A DNA stretch of 64,000 bases. Origin: an uncultured Actinomycetota bacterium (GTDB lineage: Bacteria > Actinomycetota > Actinomycetes > Actinomycetales > Dermatophilaceae). The notes below the pieces were generated by a model. That model was not told the DNA's origin and searched no databases. It saw only the letters and a list, made by a program, of their open reading frames with translations. Where the stretch lies: the NCBI GenBank assembly GCA_963771015.1, contig CAVYRN010000013.1, forward strand, positions 25,211 to 89,210, given 5' to 3'. The translations under genes and the position numbers were made by a program. Within the stretch, counting starts at the first letter, position 1; every line of letters begins with the position of its first letter. This document shows positions 13,169-57,255 of this stretch, in pieces.

Positions 13169-13819
13169 TCACCGGGAGAACTCGACGGCCCCTGCCCCGG
13201 CGAGGTCGCGGATCTCGGTGTCGGTCCCACCGAAGGTCGCCGCGTGCCCGAGGTAGAGGTCGCGGCCACGTTGGGCGAGGAGGCGGTCGTGGATGGGCAC
13301 GGCATACGGCGGGTTGTGGCGCCGCAGGAAGGCGGTCATCTCCTTGCTGGCCTGCCACGGGGCGTTGAGCGGGAAGGCGAGGACATCGACGTCGCCGAAC
13401 TCCGCGTCGAGCGCGTCACCCGGGTGGTAGAGGCTCGGCTCGCCGTCGGCGTCGAGGCGCACGCCGAGGTTGCCGATCCGGGGCAGGTCCTCGTGGATGA
13501 CGGCGTGCCGGTCGCCGTACGGGGTCACGGTCACCCCGCCGATCCGGCTCGGGCCGTCGTGGACGCTCGCCTCGACCGCGATCCCGGCGAGCACCGGCAG
13601 CGAGTCGGGGTCGCAGATGACCGGAGCGCCGGGGTTGGCGGCGACGAGGGCGGGCATCCGGGAGGTGTCGAGGTGATCGGGGTGCTGATGGGTGATGACG
13701 ATGGCGTCGAGGCCGCTCAGGGCCGTGAAGTCATCGGCGAAGGTGCCCGGGTCGAGGAGGATCCGTGCGTCGGCGATCTCGACGAGGAGGCAGGCGTGGC
13801 CGAGGTGGGTGATCCGCAT
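13169..13819 (-). CDS. MBL-fold metallo-hydrolase
   Basis: ATG at 13819 gives MRITHLGHACLLVE...VITHQHPDHLD, the HxHxDH metallo-beta-lactamase motif. Length is 216 aa. Confidence 0.85.
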   Translation of the reverse strand: MRITHLGHACLLVEIADARILLDPGTFADDFTALSGLDAIVITHQHPDHLDTSRMPALVAANPGAPVICDPDSLPVLAGIAVEASVHDGPSRIGGVTVTPYGDRHAVIHEDLPRIGNLGVRLDADGEPSLYHPGDALDAEFGDVDVLAFPLNAPWQASKEMTAFLRRHNPPYAVPIHDRLLAQRGRDLYLGHAATFGGTDTEIRDLAGAGAVEFSR

Positions 13820-13866
13820 GACCCCACCGTATGCCGAGCGCCCGGCCGCTCGCGCGGCCCCCGATG

Positions 13867-13923
13867 CCCCGGTTCGAGGTATTCCGGTCCCGTCTGGGGG
13901 TACCCGAATACCTCGAACCGGGG
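13867..13923 (-). terminator. Perfect 18-bp hairpin about 20 nt downstream of the RNase P RNA 3' end
   Basis: ccccggttcgaggtattc (13867-13884) pairs perfectly with gaatacctcgaaccgggg (13906-13923) around a 21-nt loop. There is no U-tract. Confidence 0.5.
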
Positions 13924-13941
13924 CGCAGCGACCCCGGAGGG

Positions 13942-14338
13942 GGACGAGCCGGCCTGTAAGCCGGGTTCTGTTCCACGGCCTCGTTACCGAGGCCGTGGCG
14001 ACGGTCATCCATCTGGGACGGCCGTCTCCGACCGCCTCTAGCGCCCTACCCGCGTGCTCGGGCGGGCCGCCCTCGAACGCACGCTGTCTGGACTTGCTCC
14101 GGGTGGGGTTTGCCGAGCCGACCCCGTCACCGGGGCCGCTGGTGGTCTCTTACACCACCGTTTCACCCTTGCCTCGACGCCCGGCTGCACCGGACGCTGA
14201 GGCGGTCTGTTCTCTGTGGCACTGTCCCGCGGGTTGCCCCGGGTGGCTGTTGGCCACCACCTTGCCCTGTGGAGCCCGGACTTTCCTCGACAGCCACGGC
14301 CTGAGCCGCGAGCCGCCGCGACCGTCCGGCCGACTCAT
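13942..14338 (-). ncRNA. rnpB: RNase P RNA (bacterial type A); ends are +/-5 nt
   Basis: The minus strand contains GAGGAAAGTCCGGGCTCC (plus-strand 14271-14288) and ACAGAACCCGGCTTACAGGCCGGCTC near the 3' end. P1 can form between GAGTCGGCC (5') and GGCCGGCTC (3'). Length is about 400 nt. Confidence 0.9.
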
Positions 14339-22092: not shown

Positions 22093-22165
22093 TGGGCCCG
22101 GCCGGTTTCGAACCGACGACAACCGCGGTGTAAGCGCGGTGCTCTACCAGCTGAGCTACAGGCCC
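22093..22165 (-). tRNA. tRNA-Val (anticodon TAC)
   Basis: Minus strand reads GGGCCTGTAGCTCAGCTGGTAGAGCACCGCGCTTACACCGCGGTTGTCGTCGGTTCGAAACCGGCCGGGCCCA. It folds as a cloverleaf with anticodon loop CTTACAC. Confidence 0.9.
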
Positions 22166-28028: not shown

Positions 28029-30794
28029 GTGACGTTCCGCGAGGAAGCCGGACCCATCCTCAACGGCATCCCGGCCCACCTGCCCGACACCGACCCCGGT
28101 GAGACCCAGGAGTGGCTCGACTCGCTCGACCAGGTCCTGGACGCCGGCGGTCGCACCCGGGCGCGCTACGTCATGCTCCGCCTGCTCGAGCGGGCCCGCG
28201 AGAAGCAGATCGGCGTCCCCTCGCTGACTGCCACGGACTTCGTCAACACGATCGGCCCGGAACAGGAGCCGTGGTTCCCCGGTGACGAGGACGTCGAGCG
28301 GCTCTACCGCAGGATGATCCGCTGGAACGCCGCCGTCATGGTCCACCGCGCACAGCGGCCGGGCGTCTCTGTGGGCGGTCACATCTCGACGTACGCGTCG
28401 GCGGCGACGCTCTACGAGGTCGGGATGAACCACTTCTTCCGCGGCCCGGACCACCCCGGCGGCGGGGACCAGGTCTTCTTCCAGGGTCACGCCTCACCCG
28501 GCATGTACGCCCGGTCCTTCCTCGAGGGCGTCCTGGGCGAGGAGGACCTCATGGGCTTCCGCCAGGAGAAGAGCCACGTCGTCGACGGCAGGATCCGGGC
28601 TCTGTCGTCCTACCCGCACCCTCGGATGATGCCGTCGTACTGGCAGTTCCCGACCGTGTCGATGGGCCTGGGGCCGCTCAACGCGATCTACCAGGCACAG
28701 TTCAACAAGTACCTGCAGAACCGCGGCATCAAGGACACCAGCGAGCAGCGGGTCTGGGCCTTCCTCGGCGACGGCGAGATGGACGAGGTCGAGGCCCGGG
28801 GAGCCCTGCAGATCGCCGCGTACGAGGAGCTCGACAACCTCACCTTCGTCGTCAACTGCAACCTCCAACGGCTGGACGGCCCGGTCCGGGGCAACGGGAA
28901 GATCATCCAGGAGCTCGAGGCCCAGTTCCGTGGTGCCGGCTGGAACGTCATCAAGGTCATCTGGGGCCGCGGGTGGGACCCGCTGCTGGCCGCCGACCGC
29001 GACCACGCGCTCGTCCACATCATGAACACGACGACCGACGGCGACTACCAGACCTTCCGGGCCAACGACGGCGCCTATGTGCGCGAGCACTTCTTCGGCC
29101 GTGACCCGCGCACCCGCAGGCTCGTCGAGCCGTGGAGCGACGAGGACATCTGGTACCAGCTCAAGCGCGGCGGCCACGACTACCACAAGGTGTTCGCGGC
29201 ATACCAGGCAGCCGCCCACCACACCGGCCAGCCGACGGTCATCCTCGCGCACACCATCAAGGGCTACACGCTCGGTTCCTCCTTCGCCGGCCGCAACGCG
29301 ACCCATCAGATGAAGAAGATGACCGTCGACGACCTGAAGAACTTCCGCGACCTGCTCCGGCTGCCGATCACGGACTCCCAGCTCGAGGCCGACCCCTACC
29401 AGCCGCCCTTCTTCCACCCGGGCATGGACGACCCCGCCATCGACTACATGGTCGAGCGGCGCCGGGAGCTCGGCGGGTCGCTCCCCCAGCGGCGCAGCAG
29501 GTACACCCAGCTCTCACTTCCGGACGACGACGCCTACGCCCAGGTCAAGAAGGGCTCCGGCAAGCAGCAGGTCGCCACGACGATGGCCTTCGTCCGGCTG
29601 CTCAAGGACCTCATGCGCGACAAGGAGTTCGGCAAGCGCATCGTCCCGATCATCCCCGACGAGGCGCGGACCTTCGGGATGGACAGCTTCTTCCCGACCC
29701 TGAAGATCTACAACCCGCACGGGCAGAACTACACCCCGGTCGACGCCGAGCTCATGCTCAGCTACCGCGAGTCCGTCACGGGGCAGATCCTTCACCTCGG
29801 CATCAACGAGGCCGGCTCGACCGCGTCCTTCACCGCGGCGGGGACCTCCTACGCCACCCACGGCGAGCCGATGATCCCCATCTACATCTTCTACTCGATG
29901 TTCGGGTTCCAGCGGACCGGCGACTCGATCTGGGCCGCGGCCGACCAGCTGACCCGGGGCTTCCTCATCGGGGCGACAGCGGGCCGGACCACCCTGACCG
30001 GCGAGGGCACCCAGCACGCCGACGGCCACTCCCCCCTGCTCGCCTCGACCAACCCGGCCGTCGTCACCTACGACCCGGCCTTCGGCTACGAGGTCGCGCA
30101 CATCATCCGTGGCGGCCTGGAGCGGATGTACGGCGAGAACCCCGAGAACGTCATCTACTACGTCACCGTCTACAACGAGCCGATCGCCCAGCCCGCCGAG
30201 CCCGACGACGTCGACGCCGAGGGCATCGCGCGCGGGATGTACCTGCTCAAGGAGGCCGACACCTCGACATGGCAGCACGAGCCCGCTCGGGCACAGCTGC
30301 TCGCCTCGGGCGTCGGGGTGCCATGGGCGCTCGAGGCCCAGGAGCTGCTCGCGACCGACTGGGGTGTCGCCGCCGACGTGTGGTCGGTGACCTCGTGGAG
30401 CGAGCTGCGGCGCGACGGCCTCGCCTGCGACGAGCAGACGTTCCTCCACCCCCAGGGAGAGGCGCGCGTGCCCTATGTCACCGAGCGGCTGCTCACCGCG
30501 CCCGGCCCGGTCCTGGCGACCTCGGACTACATGCGGGCCGTCCCGGACCAGATCGCCCAGTGGGTCCCCGGCGACTTCGTCTCCTTGGGAGCCGACGGCT
30601 TCGGGTTCGCCGACACCCGGGCCGCCGCCAGGCGCTACTTCCACATCGACGGGCCCTCGCTCGCGGTCCGCACCCTGCAGGTCCTCGCCCGCCGCGGCGA
30701 GATCGAGGCGTCGGTGGCCCGGGAGGCCGCCGACAGGTACCACCTCCTCGACGTCACCGCCGGCAGCTCGGGCACCGAGGGTGGCGACGCCTGA
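28029..30794 (+). CDS. aceE: Pyruvate dehydrogenase E1 component (homodimeric AceE type)
   Basis: [14 protein letters not shown] at the N-terminus, the thiamine-PP region GDGEMDE...NLQRLDG, and a length of 921 aa from GTG 28029. ATG/GTG 27945 is an alternative start. Confidence 0.9.
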
Positions 30795-30809: not shown

Positions 30810-30860
30810 CACCGGTGGGGTATGCCGCGCACCGAGCGGGCGCGGCATACCCCACCGGTG
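30810..30860. terminator. Perfect 21-bp hairpin between convergent aceE and cbbM (bidirectional terminator candidate)
   Basis: caccggtggggtatgccgcgc (30810-30830) pairs with gcgcggcataccccaccggtg (30840-30860). Each arm contains one copy of the GTATGCCG/CGGCATAC octamer. Confidence 0.65.
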
Positions 30861-30867
30861 TCCGAAG

Positions 30868-32249
30868 CTAGCTGCTCGGGACGAGCAGCCGCTCCCGCCA
30901 GCCGGGGTAGAGCTGGTCGGCGTCCTGGGGGAAGGACTCGAACGCCCGGCCGAACTCGCCGTGCGCCGTTGCCCACTCGACCGGGTCGGCCCCGGCCCTC
31001 CAGCACTCGTAGGCCTGGCGCAGTGAGCGGGCGCCCGCGGCCGGGCTGTCGAGATGGCCGTACGCGCCGCCGCCGGCGGTGTTGATGACGTTGCCGTGGC
31101 CGAGGTTCTCGAAGAAGCCGGGCAGCCGGAGCGCGTTCATCCCGCCCGAGATGATCGGCGTCGTCGCGCGCATGCCGTCCCACCGCTGGTAGTAGACGGG
31201 TCCCTGCGCCTCGTCACGCTCGATCATGTAGGCGATGATCCGGTCGTCGCCCTCGCCCTCCATCTTCCCGTATCCCATCGTGCCGACGTGGATGCCCGAG
31301 GCGCCCTGCAGGCGCGACATCTTGGCCAGGACGAAGGCGGTGTAGCCGCGCTTGGCGCTCGGCGAGGTGACCGCGCCGTGACCGGCCCGGTGGTAGTGGA
31401 GGAACTGGCCGGGGTAGTTGCGCCGGGCCGTCGTCACCATCCCGGGGCCGCCGACGTACCCGTCGACGAGGAACGCGAGCTTGTTCGCGTCGGGGCCGAA
31501 GGTCTCCAGCGCGAAGTCGGCACGGGCCAGCATCTCGTGGTGGTCGTCGGCGGTGATGTTCATCGAGAAGAGCTTGGCCTCACCGGTCTCGTCCATCGCC
31601 CGCTTCATCGCGTCGTAGACCAGGGGGATCGTCGTCCTGAGCGGCGCGAAGACCTGGTTGCCCTGCGGCTCGTCGTTCTTGATGAAGTCCCCGCCCAGCC
31701 AGAACTGGTACGCCGCCTCGGCGAAGGGCTCGGGGCGCAGCCCGAGCTTCGGCTTGATGATCGTCCCCGAGATATAGCCGCCGTCCCTGACCGGGCGGCC
31801 GAGGATGCGCCACAGGTCCTCGATGTTCATCGACGGCCCGTCGAACTGCCGGATCGCCTCGGGCGGGACGAAGAAGTCGACCATCTTGGCGTACTCGATG
31901 TCGCCCATGCCCTGGTTGTTGCCGATCGTCAGGGTGAGGAAGGAGACCATCATCATCCGGCCGTCGGTGACGTTGCGGTCGAACAGCTCCAGTGGGTAGG
32001 CGATCCGCATGTCCTCGCTCGCCTCGTCGACGTGGTAGACGAGGGCGTCGACGCCCTTGGTGAAGTCGTCGGTCGTCGACACCTCGACGTTCGTGCCGGT
32101 CGAGGACTCGGCGGCGAAGTGGGCCGCCGATGCGAGGTAGGCGTACCCCGCCTTCGGCTTCATCCGGTAGGCGCACAGGATGTGCCTCCCGCCGGCGATG
32201 AGCTCCTCCTCGGTGAGGCTCAGGTCGGCATACCGTGCTGACTGGTCCA

Positions 32250-32253
<4 letters not shown>
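30868..32253 (-). CDS. cbbM: Ribulose-1,5-bisphosphate carboxylase/oxygenase, form II large subunit
   Basis: ATG at 32253 (second ATG at 32250), 461 aa. It resembles R. rubrum CbbM over its full length from memory (MDQSxRYAxLxLxEExLIAGGxHxLCAYxMKPKAGY...). Motifs present: [80 protein letters not shown]. Confidence 0.88.
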
Positions 32254-34162
<1,909 letters not shown>

Positions 34163-42235: not shown

Positions 42236-42312
42236 GGGGCGTTAGCTCAGCTGGTCAGAGCAGCGGACTCATAATCCGTCGGTCCCGGGTTCAAGCCCCG
42301 GACGCCCCACCA
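42236..42312 (+). tRNA. tRNA with CAT anticodon (elongator Met, or Ile2 if lysidinylated); CCA encoded
   Basis: GGGGCGTTAGCTCAGCTGGTCAGAGCAGCGGACTCATAATCCGTCGGTCCCGGGTTCAAGCCCCGGACGCCCCACCA folds as a clean cloverleaf. It lacks the initiator features (C1:A72 mismatch, three GC pairs in the anticodon stem). Confidence 0.88.
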
Positions 42313-55893: not shown

Positions 55894-56019
55894 TGTTGGA
55901 CTCCTGTGGACACAAGAGGCAGAAGTGGCCTCTGACCTGCGAGAACGTTGGCTGAGACTACGACTCCAACAGTCCGCCAAGTGACGACAGAGGCCACAAA
56001 CCGCCGTACGATCCGATGC

Positions 56020-57255
56020 ATGGCCGATGCAAAATCGCCCCGCCGCCGGTTCGGGCAGCTGGCGCGGATGCGGTCCGGACGGTGGCAGGCACGCTTCACC
56101 GTCCCGCTGGGCCACCCCTCGGGACGTGGCGGTCAGACGATCACCGCGCCGCACACGTTCGAGCCGACGACGTACGGCAAGGAGGCCGCAGGCGACTGGC
56201 TTCGCGACGAGGAACGACGTCTGGTCGCCGAAGGGGCGGCATGGGCCACCCTGGCGGAGCACGCCGCGGCCGAGCGGGCGCAGGCCGAGCGCGCGGCCAT
56301 GGTCACCTTCGCCGAGTTCTCCGCGACGTGGCTTCGGACGCGTCGGACCAAGAACGGACCATTGCAGGAGTCCACGCGACGTGGCTACCGGCTCTGGCTC
56401 GACAAGTACCTCCTGCCGACCCTGGGCGACCTGCCCCTGGACGAGATCACCCCGAGCGTCATCCTGCGGTGGTACGAGGACGCCCTCCCTCACGACAAGC
56501 CGAAGACGACGCGTGAGTGCTACGCCCTGGGGTCGGCCATCATGCGGACGGCGACGGCCGCGGACGGCATGCTGGCTGGAGCCGTGAACCCCTTCAAGAT
56601 CGACGGTGCCGGCTCCATCGGTGCCCGCTCACGCGCCCGTACGGAAGTGCTCGACGACCACGACCTGCGGGTGATCATGTCGACCATCCGGCCCGAATGG
56701 CGGGCCATGGTCGCGCTCGCCCTCGGATGTGGCCTGCGCTTCGGCGAGATCATCGCGCTCCGCCGGTCCGACATCGACCTGAAGGCGAACTCTCCCGTCG
56801 TCCGCATCACTCGCGCCGTGGGCACCGGTCCCGGCGGCCGTCGCTACGAGAAGGACCCAAAGAGCGCCGCCGGAAAGCGGGACCAACGGATACCGGCCTC
56901 CGTCGTCGATGCGTTGGCCGAGCACCTCCGCACCTACGTCACCGGTAGGGACGGGCTACTCTTCCCCGCCCCGGACGGCGGGTGGCTCTCCGAGACCCGG
57001 TTCCGGAAGGCGTCCGGAGGCTGGCTCGCTGTCCGTGAAGCGGTCGGTCGCCCGGTCAACTTCCACGACCTGCGAGCGACCGGCGCCACGCGGATGGCGC
57101 AGCGGGGGGCGCACGTCGACGAGGTCAAGGTGTTCCTCGGGGACAGCTCGACCCAGGCCGCCGAGCGCTATGTCAGAGCAACGCAGAGCCGGATGGACGA
57201 CCTCACCGCGGCCGCGTTCGCAACCGTCGACTTCGGAACCGCTCGCGAACGGTGA
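56020..57255 (+). CDS. int: Tyrosine-type site-specific integrase
   Basis: ATG at 56020, 411 aa. It has an SAM-like N-terminal core-binding domain and the catalytic residues in context: GLRFGE (Arg), HDLRATGAT (His-x-x-Arg), ERY (Tyr). Confidence 0.88.
   Translation: MADAKSPRRRFGQLARMRSGRWQARFTVPLGHPSGRGGQTITAPHTFEPTTYGKEAAGDWLRDEERRLVAEGAAWATLAEHAAAERAQAERAAMVTFAEFSATWLRTRRTKNGPLQESTRRGYRLWLDKYLLPTLGDLPLDEITPSVILRWYEDALPHDKPKTTRECYALGSAIMRTATAADGMLAGAVNPFKIDGAGSIGARSRARTEVLDDHDLRVIMSTIRPEWRAMVALALGCGLRFGEIIALRRSDIDLKANSPVVRITRAVGTGPGGRRYEKDPKSAAGKRDQRIPASVVDALAEHLRTYVTGRDGLLFPAPDGGWLSETRFRKASGGWLAVREAVGRPVNFHDLRATGATRMAQRGAHVDEVKVFLGDSSTQAAERYVRATQSRMDDLTAAAFATVDFGTARER

What the first reader, a model, noticed from the sequence alone, without database searches (positions are those of the whole stretch)
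30868..32253. Apparently intact form II RuBisCO (cbbM) in an actinobacterial core-genome context, with no CBB partners in view
The 461-aa product is collinear with R. rubrum-type CbbM as far as I can recall it. It keeps every catalytic motif I can check by eye: [43 protein letters not shown] (carbamyl-Lys and Mg ligands), [27 protein letters not shown] and [10 protein letters not shown]. No prk, small subunit, cbbR, cbbQ/O, cbbX or carboxysome genes occur in the 64 kb. The RuBisCOs I know from Actinobacteria are form I, and form II is mainly proteobacterial or dinoflagellate. A lone, intact cbbM here therefore suggests horizontal acquisition. Its role could be a CBB cycle completed elsewhere in the genome, or a non-CBB function such as pentose or nucleoside salvage or a redox sink.
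Basis: partly seen in the sequence, partly recalled or inferred. Interest (0 to 1): 0.8.

Follow-up and report, generated by a model that had tools for sequence, protein, structure and literature searches.

The report
Form II RuBisCO gene in an actinobacterium
This is an intact, selectively maintained form II RuBisCO gene in an uncultured Dermatophilaceae-like actinobacterium; it is not a stray gene but one half of a two-locus Calvin-cycle gene set of proteobacterial origin, and that origin has already been noted in surveys of cultured Actinomycetota.

Summary
Window 30868-32250/32253 (-) encodes a full-length form II RuBisCO (NCBIfam NF010002, 884 bits against a cutoff of 489; about 78% identical to a solved form II structure). 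Every catalytic residue is present.

"No CBB partners in view" is only partly right. Directly upstream lie an internally deleted cbbY (an 89-aa in-frame stub lacking 169 codons) and a 29-nt motif. Among all loci I fetched, that motif occurs only in front of actinobacterial cbbY/cbbM and rpe-tkt-cbbF-prk operons.

Sister species keep the same argG | cbbY-cbbM | aceE arrangement. They also carry fba, a GAF histidine kinase, a NarL-type regulator and rpe-tkt-cbbF-prk at a second locus with the same genome signature. A matching prk locus occurs in sibling metagenomes of the one holding this species. Presence of prk in this genome is therefore likely but not proven.

cbbM has diverged in step with aceE and argG (dS about 0.38, dN/dS about 0.14) and has host-like GC3 (0.97). 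The transfer from Betaproteobacteria was therefore old.

A 2026 survey already reports form II RbcL in three cultured Actinomycetota and infers horizontal transfer. This is a new member of a known kind, with a regulatory layout I found undescribed.

The parts
30868..32250 (-). cbbM, form II RuBisCO, 460 aa (an alternative ATG at 32253 gives 461 aa)
   Evidence: NF010002 scores 884 bits against a cutoff of 489. About 78% identical to PDB 5c2c over the full length. All catalytic residues are present. dN/dS is 0.14 against syntenic orthologues.
32257..32263 (-). GAAGGAG, a Shine-Dalgarno-like sequence for cbbM, lying inside the 3' end of the cbbY stub
   Evidence: Read directly from the sequence.
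32250..32519 (-). cbbY remnant: an 89-aa in-frame stub made of CbbY residues 1-34 fused to residues 204-258. Its TGA overlaps the cbbM ATG.
   Evidence: The intact orthologue in L004 matches R. sphaeroides CbbY (PDB 4uar, E 2.6e-56). The window copy lacks 507 bp (169 codons). The same deletion is present in two independent assemblies, L001 and L099.
32417..32422 (-). Deletion junction: one CCGGCC copy where the intact gene has two copies 507 bp apart (microhomology)
32528..32533 (-). TAGCGT, a -10-like hexamer 8 nt upstream of the stub ATG. This suggests a leaderless or near-leaderless transcript.
   Evidence: Conserved as (C)TAGCGT in four of six cbbY upstream regions (window, L004, L090, L008); L088 (CTAGTCT) and L002 (CTACCGT) diverge. 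Its promoter role is inferred. The E. coli-type consensus scan finds no promoter here.
32555..32583 (-). Candidate cbb operator TCACCCCCCGATCCCCCCGTAGAGGTGAG, 35 bp upstream of the stub ATG
   Evidence: This is the only match in the window (0.04 expected per 64 kb). In all fetched loci it occurs only upstream of cbbY/cbbM and of rpe/cbbF in actinobacterial loci, and never in the roughly 75 proteobacterial cbbM loci.
30810..30860 (.). Perfect 21-nt inverted repeat (9-nt loop) between the convergent aceE and cbbM; probably a bidirectional terminator
28029..30794 (+). aceE (pyruvate dehydrogenase E1), a flanking core gene; start as in the relatives
32654..34072 (+). argG (argininosuccinate synthase, 472 aa), a flanking core gene divergent from the cbbY stub

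Best explanation
cbbM encodes a catalytically competent form II RuBisCO that serves as the carboxylase of a Calvin-Benson-Bassham gene set split over two chromosomal loci in an uncultured Dermatophilaceae/Intrasporangiaceae-like genus.

Locus A is the one in this window: cbbY-cbbM inserted between argG and aceE. Locus B, seen in sister species, carries fba, a GAF/HisKA_3 sensor kinase, a NarL/GerE-type response regulator and rpe-tkt-cbbF-prk. Both transcription units are preceded by the same motif (TCACCCC-N-CCACCCC/CCCCCC-N-GGGTGAG). It is placed where an activator would overlap the -35 region. The regulator therefore probably switches both loci on together, taking the role CbbR plays in Proteobacteria.

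cbbY-cbbM came from a betaproteobacterial cbb operon into an actinobacterial cbb island. It was in place before this genus diversified and has been inherited vertically since.

In this species cbbY, the xylulose-1,5-bisphosphate phosphatase that clears a RuBisCO inhibitor, was destroyed by a 507-bp in-frame deletion. The deletion leaves the promoter, the reading frame and the stop/start overlap with cbbM intact.

The physiological role is inferred from established knowledge of form II enzymes: CO2 fixation or CO2 as an electron sink under low-O2, high-CO2 conditions.

Shown: enzyme identity and intactness, synteny, the deletion, the motif and its distribution, purifying selection, and locus B in relatives.
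Inferred: regulator-motif binding, presence of locus B in this exact genome, and physiology.
For: - Enzyme identity. Only 2 deviations at columns at least 95% conserved among 201 form II sequences; the median sequence has 1.
- Synteny: argG | CbbY(258-266 aa)-CbbM | aceE in L002/L003 and L004/L005.
- Full islands (prk-cbbF-tkt-rpe / regulator-kinase / cbbY-cbbM) in Nocardioidaceae, 'Cellulomonas' and Propionibacteriaceae MAGs; the Actinomycetaceae locus L015 keeps cbbM, the kinase, cbbF and prk but no cbbY.
- Locus B in the same samples as locus A, for two sister species. With cbb genes masked, tetranucleotide correlation is 0.996 and 0.993, against 0.97 to another actinobacterium from the same sample. 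Core-protein divergence matches: IlvD 91%, AceE 92%.
- A third locus B (L102/L103) comes from JGI 3300036935 and 3300036925, sibling samples of 3300036918, which holds this species. Its IlvD is 92.5/92.6% identical to the two sisters. That mirrors AceE of the window at 93.4/92.7%.
- Motif.
- Selection and vertical descent: cbbM dS 0.38 against aceE 0.39-0.40 and argG 0.33-0.35; dN/dS 0.14. GC3 is 0.967 against 0.957 and 0.956.
- Origin: all nine labelled actinobacterial sequences fall in one NJ clade (66% bootstrap) next to Rhodocyclaceae, Gallionella and Nitrosomonadales. Rhodocyclaceae L006 has cbbR | cbbY-cbbM-cbbQ-cbbO-prk.
Against: - prk, the regulator and the kinase were not found in this 64-kb window, and I could not search the rest of this genome.
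- The link between loci A and B rests on co-occurrence in metagenome assemblies, composition and matched divergence, not on one closed genome. One search showed that one of these assemblies (ERZ25039483) is mixed.
- cbbY is inactivated here, which could be a first step towards loss of the pathway.
- The actinobacterial CbbM clade has only moderate bootstrap support. Within it the window groups with the Nocardioidaceae set (67%), not with its syntenic sisters.
- No experiment links the regulator to the motif.
- No autotrophy has been shown for any form II actinobacterium (PMC12999727).
Confidence: 0.62

Rival explanations
1. Orphan RuBisCO. This species has lost prk and keeps cbbM for a non-CBB role, making ribulose-1,5-bisphosphate another way. 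One route would be nucleoside/AMP salvage through ribose-1,5-bisphosphate, as with archaeal form III enzymes. Another would be a role in sulfur or methylthioadenosine metabolism, as proposed for R. rubrum.
For: No prk or other CBB gene lies in the 64 kb. cbbY, an accessory of active CBB operation, is deleted. The exact-pattern metagenome scan did not return a locus B from the metagenome that holds this species.
Against: The cbb-specific upstream motif is retained unchanged, identical to that of L004. Sister species carry prk at a second locus, and a fitting prk locus occurs in sibling metagenomes. No AMP phosphorylase or ribose-1,5-bisphosphate isomerase domain appeared among the window genes scanned. 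cbbY is also absent from other actinobacterial islands that still have prk (L015, L100), so losing it does not imply losing the cycle.
Confidence: 0.2
2. Decaying remnant. The pathway is being lost in this species, cbbY went first, and cbbM is intact only because too little time has passed.
For: The 507-bp cbbY deletion is present in all three independent assemblies of this species.
Against: The three-taxon estimate for the window branch gives dN about 0.025 and dS about 0.19, a ratio of about 0.13. That is no higher than in the sisters (derived). There are no frameshifts or stops, all catalytic residues are kept, and only 2 unusual substitutions occur at highly conserved columns. The deletion is in frame and preserves the promoter, the Shine-Dalgarno sequence and the stop/start overlap. 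An in-frame outcome has a one-in-three chance, so this point is weak.
Confidence: 0.1
3. Assembly or binning artefact: a proteobacterial cbbM wrongly joined to actinobacterial DNA.
For: The protein is 85-89% identical to betaproteobacterial CbbM.
Against: The gene sits inside a contig between aceE and argG. The same junctions occur in five independent assemblies of three species. Its GC3 of 0.967 equals that of its neighbours, and its dS equals that of its neighbours.
Confidence: 0.02

Closest known systems
Betaproteobacterial form II RuBisCO (CbbM) of Rhodocyclaceae/Gallionellaceae type, e.g. PDB 5c2c, in cbbR | cbbY-cbbM-cbbQ-cbbO-prk operons
   Same: 85-89% amino-acid identity with no indels. 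Identical catalytic residues. The same cbbY-cbbM adjacency with overlapping stop and start.
   Different: The host is an actinobacterium. There is no cbbR and no cbbQ/cbbO activase nearby. The upstream control region is different. prk, cbbF, tkt and rpe lie elsewhere. cbbY is deleted.
Form II RbcL reported in three cultured Actinomycetota; the four genera listed as carrying form IA or II are Flaviflexus, Amorphoplanes, Propionicicella and Propionicimonas (Microbes Environ 2026, PMC12999727)
   Same: Form II enzyme in Actinomycetota that groups with Pseudomonadota, with horizontal transfer inferred. My Propionibacteriaceae and Actinomycetaceae MAG loci (L008, L015, L037, L068) fall in the same clade as the window.
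   Different: This lineage is Dermatophilaceae-like, a family not on that list. Here the gene set is split over two loci and cbbY is inactivated. That paper is a genome survey and, in the passages I retrieved by keyword search, does not mention the island, the two-component regulator or the motif.
Actinobacterial form IE RuBisCO CBB operons (Pseudonocardia, Mycolicibacterium)
   Same: The island Prk is 79-80% identical to Pseudonocardia and Microlunatus Prk but only 60-74% identical to Prk next to proteobacterial cbbM. The kinase part of the island therefore looks actinobacterial.
   Different: The carboxylase is a small-subunit-free form II enzyme, not form IE cbbLS.
CbbY xylulose-1,5-bisphosphate phosphatase (R. 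sphaeroides, PDB 4uar)
   Same: The orthologue in sister species matches at E 2.6e-56 over residues 4-222. The window keeps HAD motif I (DVDGT) and the C-terminal 56 residues.
   Different: Residues 35-203 (cap domain and most of the core) are deleted, so the window copy cannot be a functional phosphatase.

Membership tests
Form II RuBisCO (CbbM) | Scores above the curated cutoff of the form II equivalog model and below the cutoffs of the form I, III and IV models | tested here: met
   NF010002 scores 884.1 against a cutoff of 489. The form I/III subfamily model scores 242.8 against 438. Form III scores 232.4 against 497. The RuBisCO-like models (MtnW, OiaX) score 40-100 against 409-700.
Form II RuBisCO (CbbM) | Carbamylated Lys, the Mg ligands and the RuBP-binding residues (R. 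rubrum K191, D193, E194, K166, K168, H287, R288, H321, K329, S368, G370, G393/394, E48, T53, N111) | tested here: met
   All are present at collinear positions. The alignment to 5c2c and 9rub has no gaps.
Form II RuBisCO (CbbM) | Groups with form II sequences, not with II/III, III or IV | tested here: met
   E 7e-261 to solved form II structures, against 1e-92 to II/III and form III (5mac, 8vgs) and 1e-45 to form I. It lies inside a form II clade in the NJ tree.
Form II RuBisCO (CbbM) | Carboxylase activity on ribulose-1,5-bisphosphate | not testable with these tools
   Needs expression and a 14CO2 or coupled assay.
Functional CBB cycle gene set | Phosphoribulokinase in the same genome | tested here: inconclusive
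   Absent from the 64 kb. Present at a second locus in two sister species. A fitting locus occurs in sibling metagenomes of the one that holds this species.
Proteobacterial-type cbb operon | Divergent LysR-type cbbR, and cbbQ/cbbO downstream of cbbM | tested here: not met
   tblastn found no cbbR or cbbO in the window; cbbQ was not used as a tblastn query. The Pfam tables for L001-L005, L088, L090, L091 and L093 list no HTH_1/LysR_substrate domain, and downstream of cbbM they show convergent aceE, the kinase gene or an unrelated oxidoreductase, with no AAA+ CbbQ or CbbO. A GAF-HisKA_3 kinase and a GerE-type regulator are there instead.
CbbY (HAD xylulose-1,5-bisphosphate phosphatase) | Complete HAD core (motifs I-IV) plus cap domain, about 230-260 aa | tested here: not met
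   89 aa remain. There is a 507-bp in-frame deletion of residues 35-203. The Pfam HAD models score below their gathering cutoffs.
RuBisCO-like protein (form IV) | Loss of carboxylase active-site residues and a match to the MtnW, OiaX or other RLP models | tested here: not met
   The active site is intact. The RLP models score far below their cutoffs.
Pentose-bisphosphate / AMP salvage pathway (form III-type use of RuBisCO) | AMP phosphorylase and ribose-1,5-bisphosphate isomerase encoded with or near the RuBisCO gene | tested here: not met
   No such domains appear among the genes of the window and of the syntenic loci. The genome-wide situation is not testable here.

The most novel reading that the evidence does not exclude
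Actinobacteria that acquired form II RuBisCO run their CBB genes under a dedicated GAF-domain sensor kinase and a NarL-type response regulator, not under CbbR. The regulator acts through a previously undescribed operator (TCACCCC-N5-CCACCCC-N3-5-GGGTGAG) that ties physically separated loci into one regulon. The system would work as an O2-, redox- or CO2-responsive electron sink or mixotrophic CO2-fixation module in facultatively anaerobic, fermentative actinobacteria of peat, fen and sludge. CbbY would be dispensable, since it has been lost repeatedly.
Probability: 0.35. Interest if true: 0.6.

Novelty: new member of a known kind. Interest (0 to 1): 0.4.

Why it matters
- It adds a Dermatophilaceae-like genus, uncultured and recovered only from metagenome assemblies, to the few Actinomycetota known to carry form II RuBisCO.
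- It shows that an apparently orphan RuBisCO can be half of a split regulon. Scoring gene neighbourhoods alone would misread such genomes as lacking the Calvin cycle.
- The shared upstream motif and the associated two-component system give a concrete, testable handle on CbbR-independent control of CO2 fixation.
- Repeated loss of cbbY is a natural experiment on how far that repair enzyme is needed alongside a form II enzyme.
- If these organisms fix CO2, or use it as a redox sink, in anoxic soils and sludge, carbon budgets for such habitats would need to include them.

Tried and rejected
- Exact look-up of the 461-aa product found nothing. The collection holds the 460-aa form (P0002).
It returned mostly Proteobacteria and not the source genome, so I could not search that genome for prk.
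I inferred taxonomy from AceE neighbours instead.
- I first treated a shared ENA analysis accession as evidence for one genome. One search showed that ERZ25039483 also holds a complete cbb island from a different actinobacterium, so it is a mixed assembly. I then relied on tetranucleotide signature and matched divergence.
- The Prk candidates P0132-P0136 and P0376 belong to that other lineage.
- The exact-pattern scan of JGI metagenomes with the rpe-type motif returned only 5 loci. None came from the metagenome holding this species.
- The E. coli-type promoter scan found nothing, as expected for DNA of 72% G+C. The one predicted terminator lies inside cbbM, so I discounted it.
- Six literature searches for form II in Actinobacteria were empty or irrelevant before PMC12999727 turned up.
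- I considered the RuBisCO-like protein reading and a recent-transfer reading. I rejected them and respectively.
Full report
**1. The observation**

The minus-strand ORF ending at 30868 translates to MMDQSARY...LLVPSS. It scores 884 bits on the NCBIfam form II equivalog NF010002 (cutoff 489) and carries both Pfam RuBisCO large-chain domains. It aligns end to end, without gaps, to solved form II enzymes: 5c2c at E 7e-261 (about 78% identity), and R. palustris and R. rubrum at around E 1e-230 to 1e-239. Form II/III and III structures reach only about 1e-92, and form I about 1e-45.

With the second ATG (32250) as start, the protein is 460 aa and collinear with R. rubrum numbering. These residues are all present: E48, T53, N54, N111, K166, K168, K191, D193, E194, H287, R288, H321, K329, S368, G370, G393 and G394. 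Against 200 other form II sequences, it departs from the majority residue at only 2 of the columns that are at least 95% conserved. The median sequence departs at 1.

**2. The immediate surroundings**

The 89-aa ORF at 32250-32519 (-) begins [31 protein letters not shown], which is HAD motif I. In sister genomes the same position holds a 258-266-aa HAD protein. That protein matches R. sphaeroides CbbY, the xylulose-1,5-bisphosphate phosphatase, at E 2.6e-56 (PDB 4uar).

The window copy consists of residues 1-34 joined in frame to residues 204-258. A 507-bp stretch (169 codons) is missing between two CCGGCC copies. The deletion removes the cap domain and most of the catalytic core, so the product cannot be a phosphatase. 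The reading frame, the GAAGGAG ribosome-binding site and the TGA/ATG overlap with cbbM are all retained.

The same deletion is present in two independent assemblies of the same species: L001 (ENA, 99.7% identical over 21 kb) and L099 (JGI 3300036918, 99.5% over 8.8 kb). It is real and probably fixed in the species. A perfect 21-nt inverted repeat separates cbbM from the convergent aceE.

**3. The rest of the window**

tblastn with Prk, class I FBPase, Rpe, Tkt, CbbR, CbbO, Gap and the island regulator and kinase found nothing besides the cbbY remnant. Pfam scans of 30 further ORFs, together with the gene tables of syntenic loci, show these genes:
- hisBCD, glnA, panB, map, RNase P RNA, an RNB-domain (RNase II-type) exonuclease gene and a Cys/Met-metabolism PLP-dependent enzyme gene;
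- NIF3, aceE, argG, a PucR-like regulator, fabD-fabH-acpP-fabF-accD and an amino-acid ABC transporter;
- a phage-type integrase.

There are no further CBB, hydrogenase or carboxysome genes. The closest named AceE relatives (78-81%) are Intrasporangium, Terrabacter, Pedococcus, Oryzihumus and "Dermatophilaceae bacterium". About five unnamed lineages are 92-93% identical. The host is therefore an uncultured Dermatophilaceae/Intrasporangiaceae-like genus.

**4. Relatives**

Two sister species (CbbM 90-91% identical) have exactly argG | cbbY-cbbM | aceE, with intact cbbY (L002/L003 and L004/L005).

Other actinobacterial MAGs (Nocardioidaceae L088, 'Cellulomonas' L090, Propionibacteriaceae L008) carry a compact island: prk-cbbF-tkt-rpe, a GerE-type response regulator, a GAF-HisKA_3 histidine kinase, and cbbY-cbbM. 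The Actinomycetaceae locus L015 keeps cbbM, the kinase, cbbF and prk but lacks cbbY. None of these loci has cbbR or cbbQ/O.

A Rhodocyclaceae locus with 89% identical CbbM has cbbR | cbbY-cbbM-cbbQ-cbbO-prk.

In an NJ tree of 201 sequences, all nine labelled actinobacterial CbbM fall in one clade. Bootstrap support is 66% for the 69-leaf version, and no labelled proteobacterial sequence lies inside it. The clade sits next to Rhodocyclaceae, Gallionella and Nitrosomonadales. Resolution inside the clade is poor: the window pairs with the Nocardioidaceae group at 67%.

The island Prk is 79-80% identical to Pseudonocardia and Microlunatus Prk, but only 60-74% identical to Prk beside proteobacterial cbbM. 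This suggests a mosaic island, with proteobacterial cbbY-cbbM grafted onto actinobacterial pentose-phosphate and prk genes. That reading is an inference.

**5. Where prk is in this genus**

I searched with the Nocardioidaceae Prk and looked up two hits.
- P0130 lies in JGI 3300017937 and ENA ERZ27257559, the two samples that hold L003 and L002.
- P0142 lies in ERZ25039483, which holds L005.

Both loci read fba | kinase-regulator <- -> rpe-tkt-cbbF-prk, followed by a metallophosphatase, ilvD, VTT, CHAD, LytR_C, VapB and HerA. They are syntenic with each other, and they lack cbbY and cbbM.

ERZ25039483 also contains a complete island from a different actinobacterium (L100). Shared sample accession alone is therefore not proof of one genome. 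Three further lines support it:
- With cbb genes masked, tetranucleotide correlation is 0.996 (L002 with L091) and 0.993 (L004 with L093). The two halves of the window correlate at 0.989, and L100 at about 0.97.
- G+C content matches.
- Core-protein divergence matches: IlvD 91.0%, against AceE 92.1% and ArgG 91.5%.

A third locus B (P0374; L102/L103) comes from JGI 3300036935 and 3300036925. These are sibling samples of 3300036918, which holds this species. Its IlvD is 92.5/92.6% identical to the two sisters. That pattern mirrors the window's AceE (93.4/92.7%) and ArgG (93.0/93.6%). I rate presence of prk in this species as likely (about 0.6) but unproven.

**6. A shared upstream motif**

Aligning the regions upstream of cbbY and of rpe revealed a conserved element:
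- window and L004, upstream of cbbY: TCACCCCCCGATCCCCCCGTAGAGGTGAG
- L002, upstream of cbbY: TCACCCCCCTGTCCCCCCGTGCAGGTGAG
- L091, upstream of rpe: TCACCCCCCGCTCCACCCCCTGGGGGGAG
- L093, upstream of rpe: TCACCCCCACGTCCACCCCTGCGGGGGAG
- similar sites in L008, L015, L088 and L090.

The regular expression TCACCCC-N5-10-CCCC-N3-9-GKGAG hits the window once, at 32583-32555 (-). The expectation is 0.04 per 64 kb. Across all fetched loci it occurs only in actinobacterial ones, and always directly upstream of cbbY/cbbM or rpe/cbbF. It never occurs in the roughly 75 proteobacterial cbbM loci.

Upstream of cbbY the motif ends a constant 34-35 bp before the start codon. A TAGCGT -10-like hexamer (conserved in four of the six cbbY upstream regions) lies 8 nt before the ATG. 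This fits an activator site overlapping the -35 region of a leaderless transcript (inference).

The outer half-sites TCACCCC and GGGGTGA form an inverted repeat, which suits a dimeric GerE/NarL-type regulator. The adjacent regulator-kinase pair is the obvious candidate, but binding is untested. The window's motif is intact and identical to that of L004. This argues that cbbM is still wired into the cbb regulon.

**7. Selection and age**

| Gene | Comparison | dS | dN/dS |
|---|---|---|---|
| cbbM | window vs L002 / L004 | 0.38 / 0.38 | 0.14 / 0.15 |
| aceE | window vs L002 / L004 | 0.40 / 0.39 | 0.10 / 0.12 |
| argG | window vs L002 / L004 | 0.35 / 0.33 | 0.13 / 0.12 |

A three-taxon split puts the window branch of cbbM at dN/dS about 0.13, no higher than the sisters. 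GC3 is 0.967 for cbbM, against 0.957 for aceE and 0.956 for argG.

The gene has therefore co-diverged with its neighbours under purifying selection. The transfer predates the genus, and there is no sign of decay apart from cbbY. cbbY is also missing or vestigial in L015 and in L100/L101, which still have prk. Its loss is recurrent and does not imply loss of the pathway.

**8. Literature**

Reviews list form II as proteobacterial, archaeal and dinoflagellate (PMC7895386). A 2026 survey of culture-collection genomes reports that three Actinomycetota species carry form II RbcL. It names Flaviflexus, Amorphoplanes, Propionicicella and Propionicimonas as the genera with form IA or II, and notes that these sequences group with Pseudomonadota, "which suggests ... 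horizontal gene transfer". None has been tested for autotrophy (PMC12999727).

I found nothing on Dermatophilaceae, on the island architecture, on the two-component regulator or on the motif. The library does not cover most subscription journals.

**9. Verdict**

The gene is a bona fide, selectively maintained form II RuBisCO. The "lone gene" impression comes from a split regulon plus a deleted cbbY. The most likely function is carboxylation in a CBB cycle or shunt, co-regulated with a distant prk operon and suited to low-O2, high-CO2 habitats. That physiology is inferred from the known properties of form II enzymes.

It is a new member of a known kind. The undescribed aspects are the regulatory architecture and the motif. 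Interest is moderate.

Noticed in passing
L091 4128-6196; L093 4076-6148; L088 11409-13430; L090 7099-9130; L008 7135-9134: Every actinobacterial form II cbb island pairs a roughly 400-aa GAF + HisKA_3 + HATPase kinase with a GerE/NarL-type response regulator, transcribed divergently from rpe, and has no CbbR. The best NCBIfam matches (MadS/MadR, MctS/MctR, NarL) are all below their cutoffs, so the pair belongs to no named equivalog.
   Followed up: partly
L100 3948-4162 and L101 (ENA ERZ25039483 / ERZ25039549); L015 512-647: Independent loss of cbbY. In another actinobacterium (its context includes thrS, pdxS/T and SsgA), only a 40-aa ORF remains between the kinase gene and cbbM. The Actinomycetaceae MAG has no cbbY at all, and the motif sits directly upstream of cbbM. 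Both still have prk.
   Followed up: partly
L008 6114-6356: In the Propionibacteriaceae fen_732 island, the transketolase gene between rpe and cbbF is reduced to an 80-aa fragment. L088, L090 and L091 have 669-680 aa at this position. This could be gene decay or an assembly problem.
   Followed up: no
window 32654-34072 and the syntenic loci: A long-type argG (472 aa) sits between aceE and the PucR-like regulator/fabD-acpP-fabF-accD cluster. From my own knowledge, that block is contiguous in mycobacteria (Rv2241-Rv2247). If so, argG may itself be an insertion at the same spot as cbbY-cbbM, marking a local hotspot for rearrangement.
   Followed up: no
window 55936-57255 (+), with lower G+C (0.68-0.70) over roughly 49-64 kb: A phage-type tyrosine integrase is followed by ORFs with no Pfam match in a region of reduced G+C. 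This may be an integrated element. It is unrelated to cbbM.
   Followed up: no
window 13941-14337 (-); 22093-22165 (-); 42236-42309 (+): RNase P RNA (Rfam RF00010, 283 bits) and two tRNA genes. A high-GC3 ORF at 13169-14149 overlaps the RNase P RNA and is probably spurious.
   Followed up: no
L086/L087 1-11374 (P0025; GCA_964583695.1 and ENA ERZ28614953): This cbbM (89% identical to the window) has a downstream LysR gene. Its cbbY and FBPase neighbours are separated from it by about 8 kb that encodes very large ankyrin-repeat proteins and, in one assembly, an IS110 transposase. This is an unusual insertion into a cbb operon.
   Followed up: no
L006 8151-9104: In the Rhodocyclaceae locus closest to the actinobacterial clade, an IS-type transposase-like ORF lies between cbbR and cbbY-cbbM. 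That is the kind of junction at which cbbY-cbbM could have been mobilised.
   Followed up: no
L091-L093 and L102/L103, against L002/L004 and the window: The locus-B cbb genes evolve faster than cbbM and the core genes (Prk 82-89%, CbbF 81-83% and Tkt 81-83% identity; dN/dS 0.19-0.30, against 0.10-0.16). Constraint on the accessory half of the regulon is weaker.
   Followed up: partly
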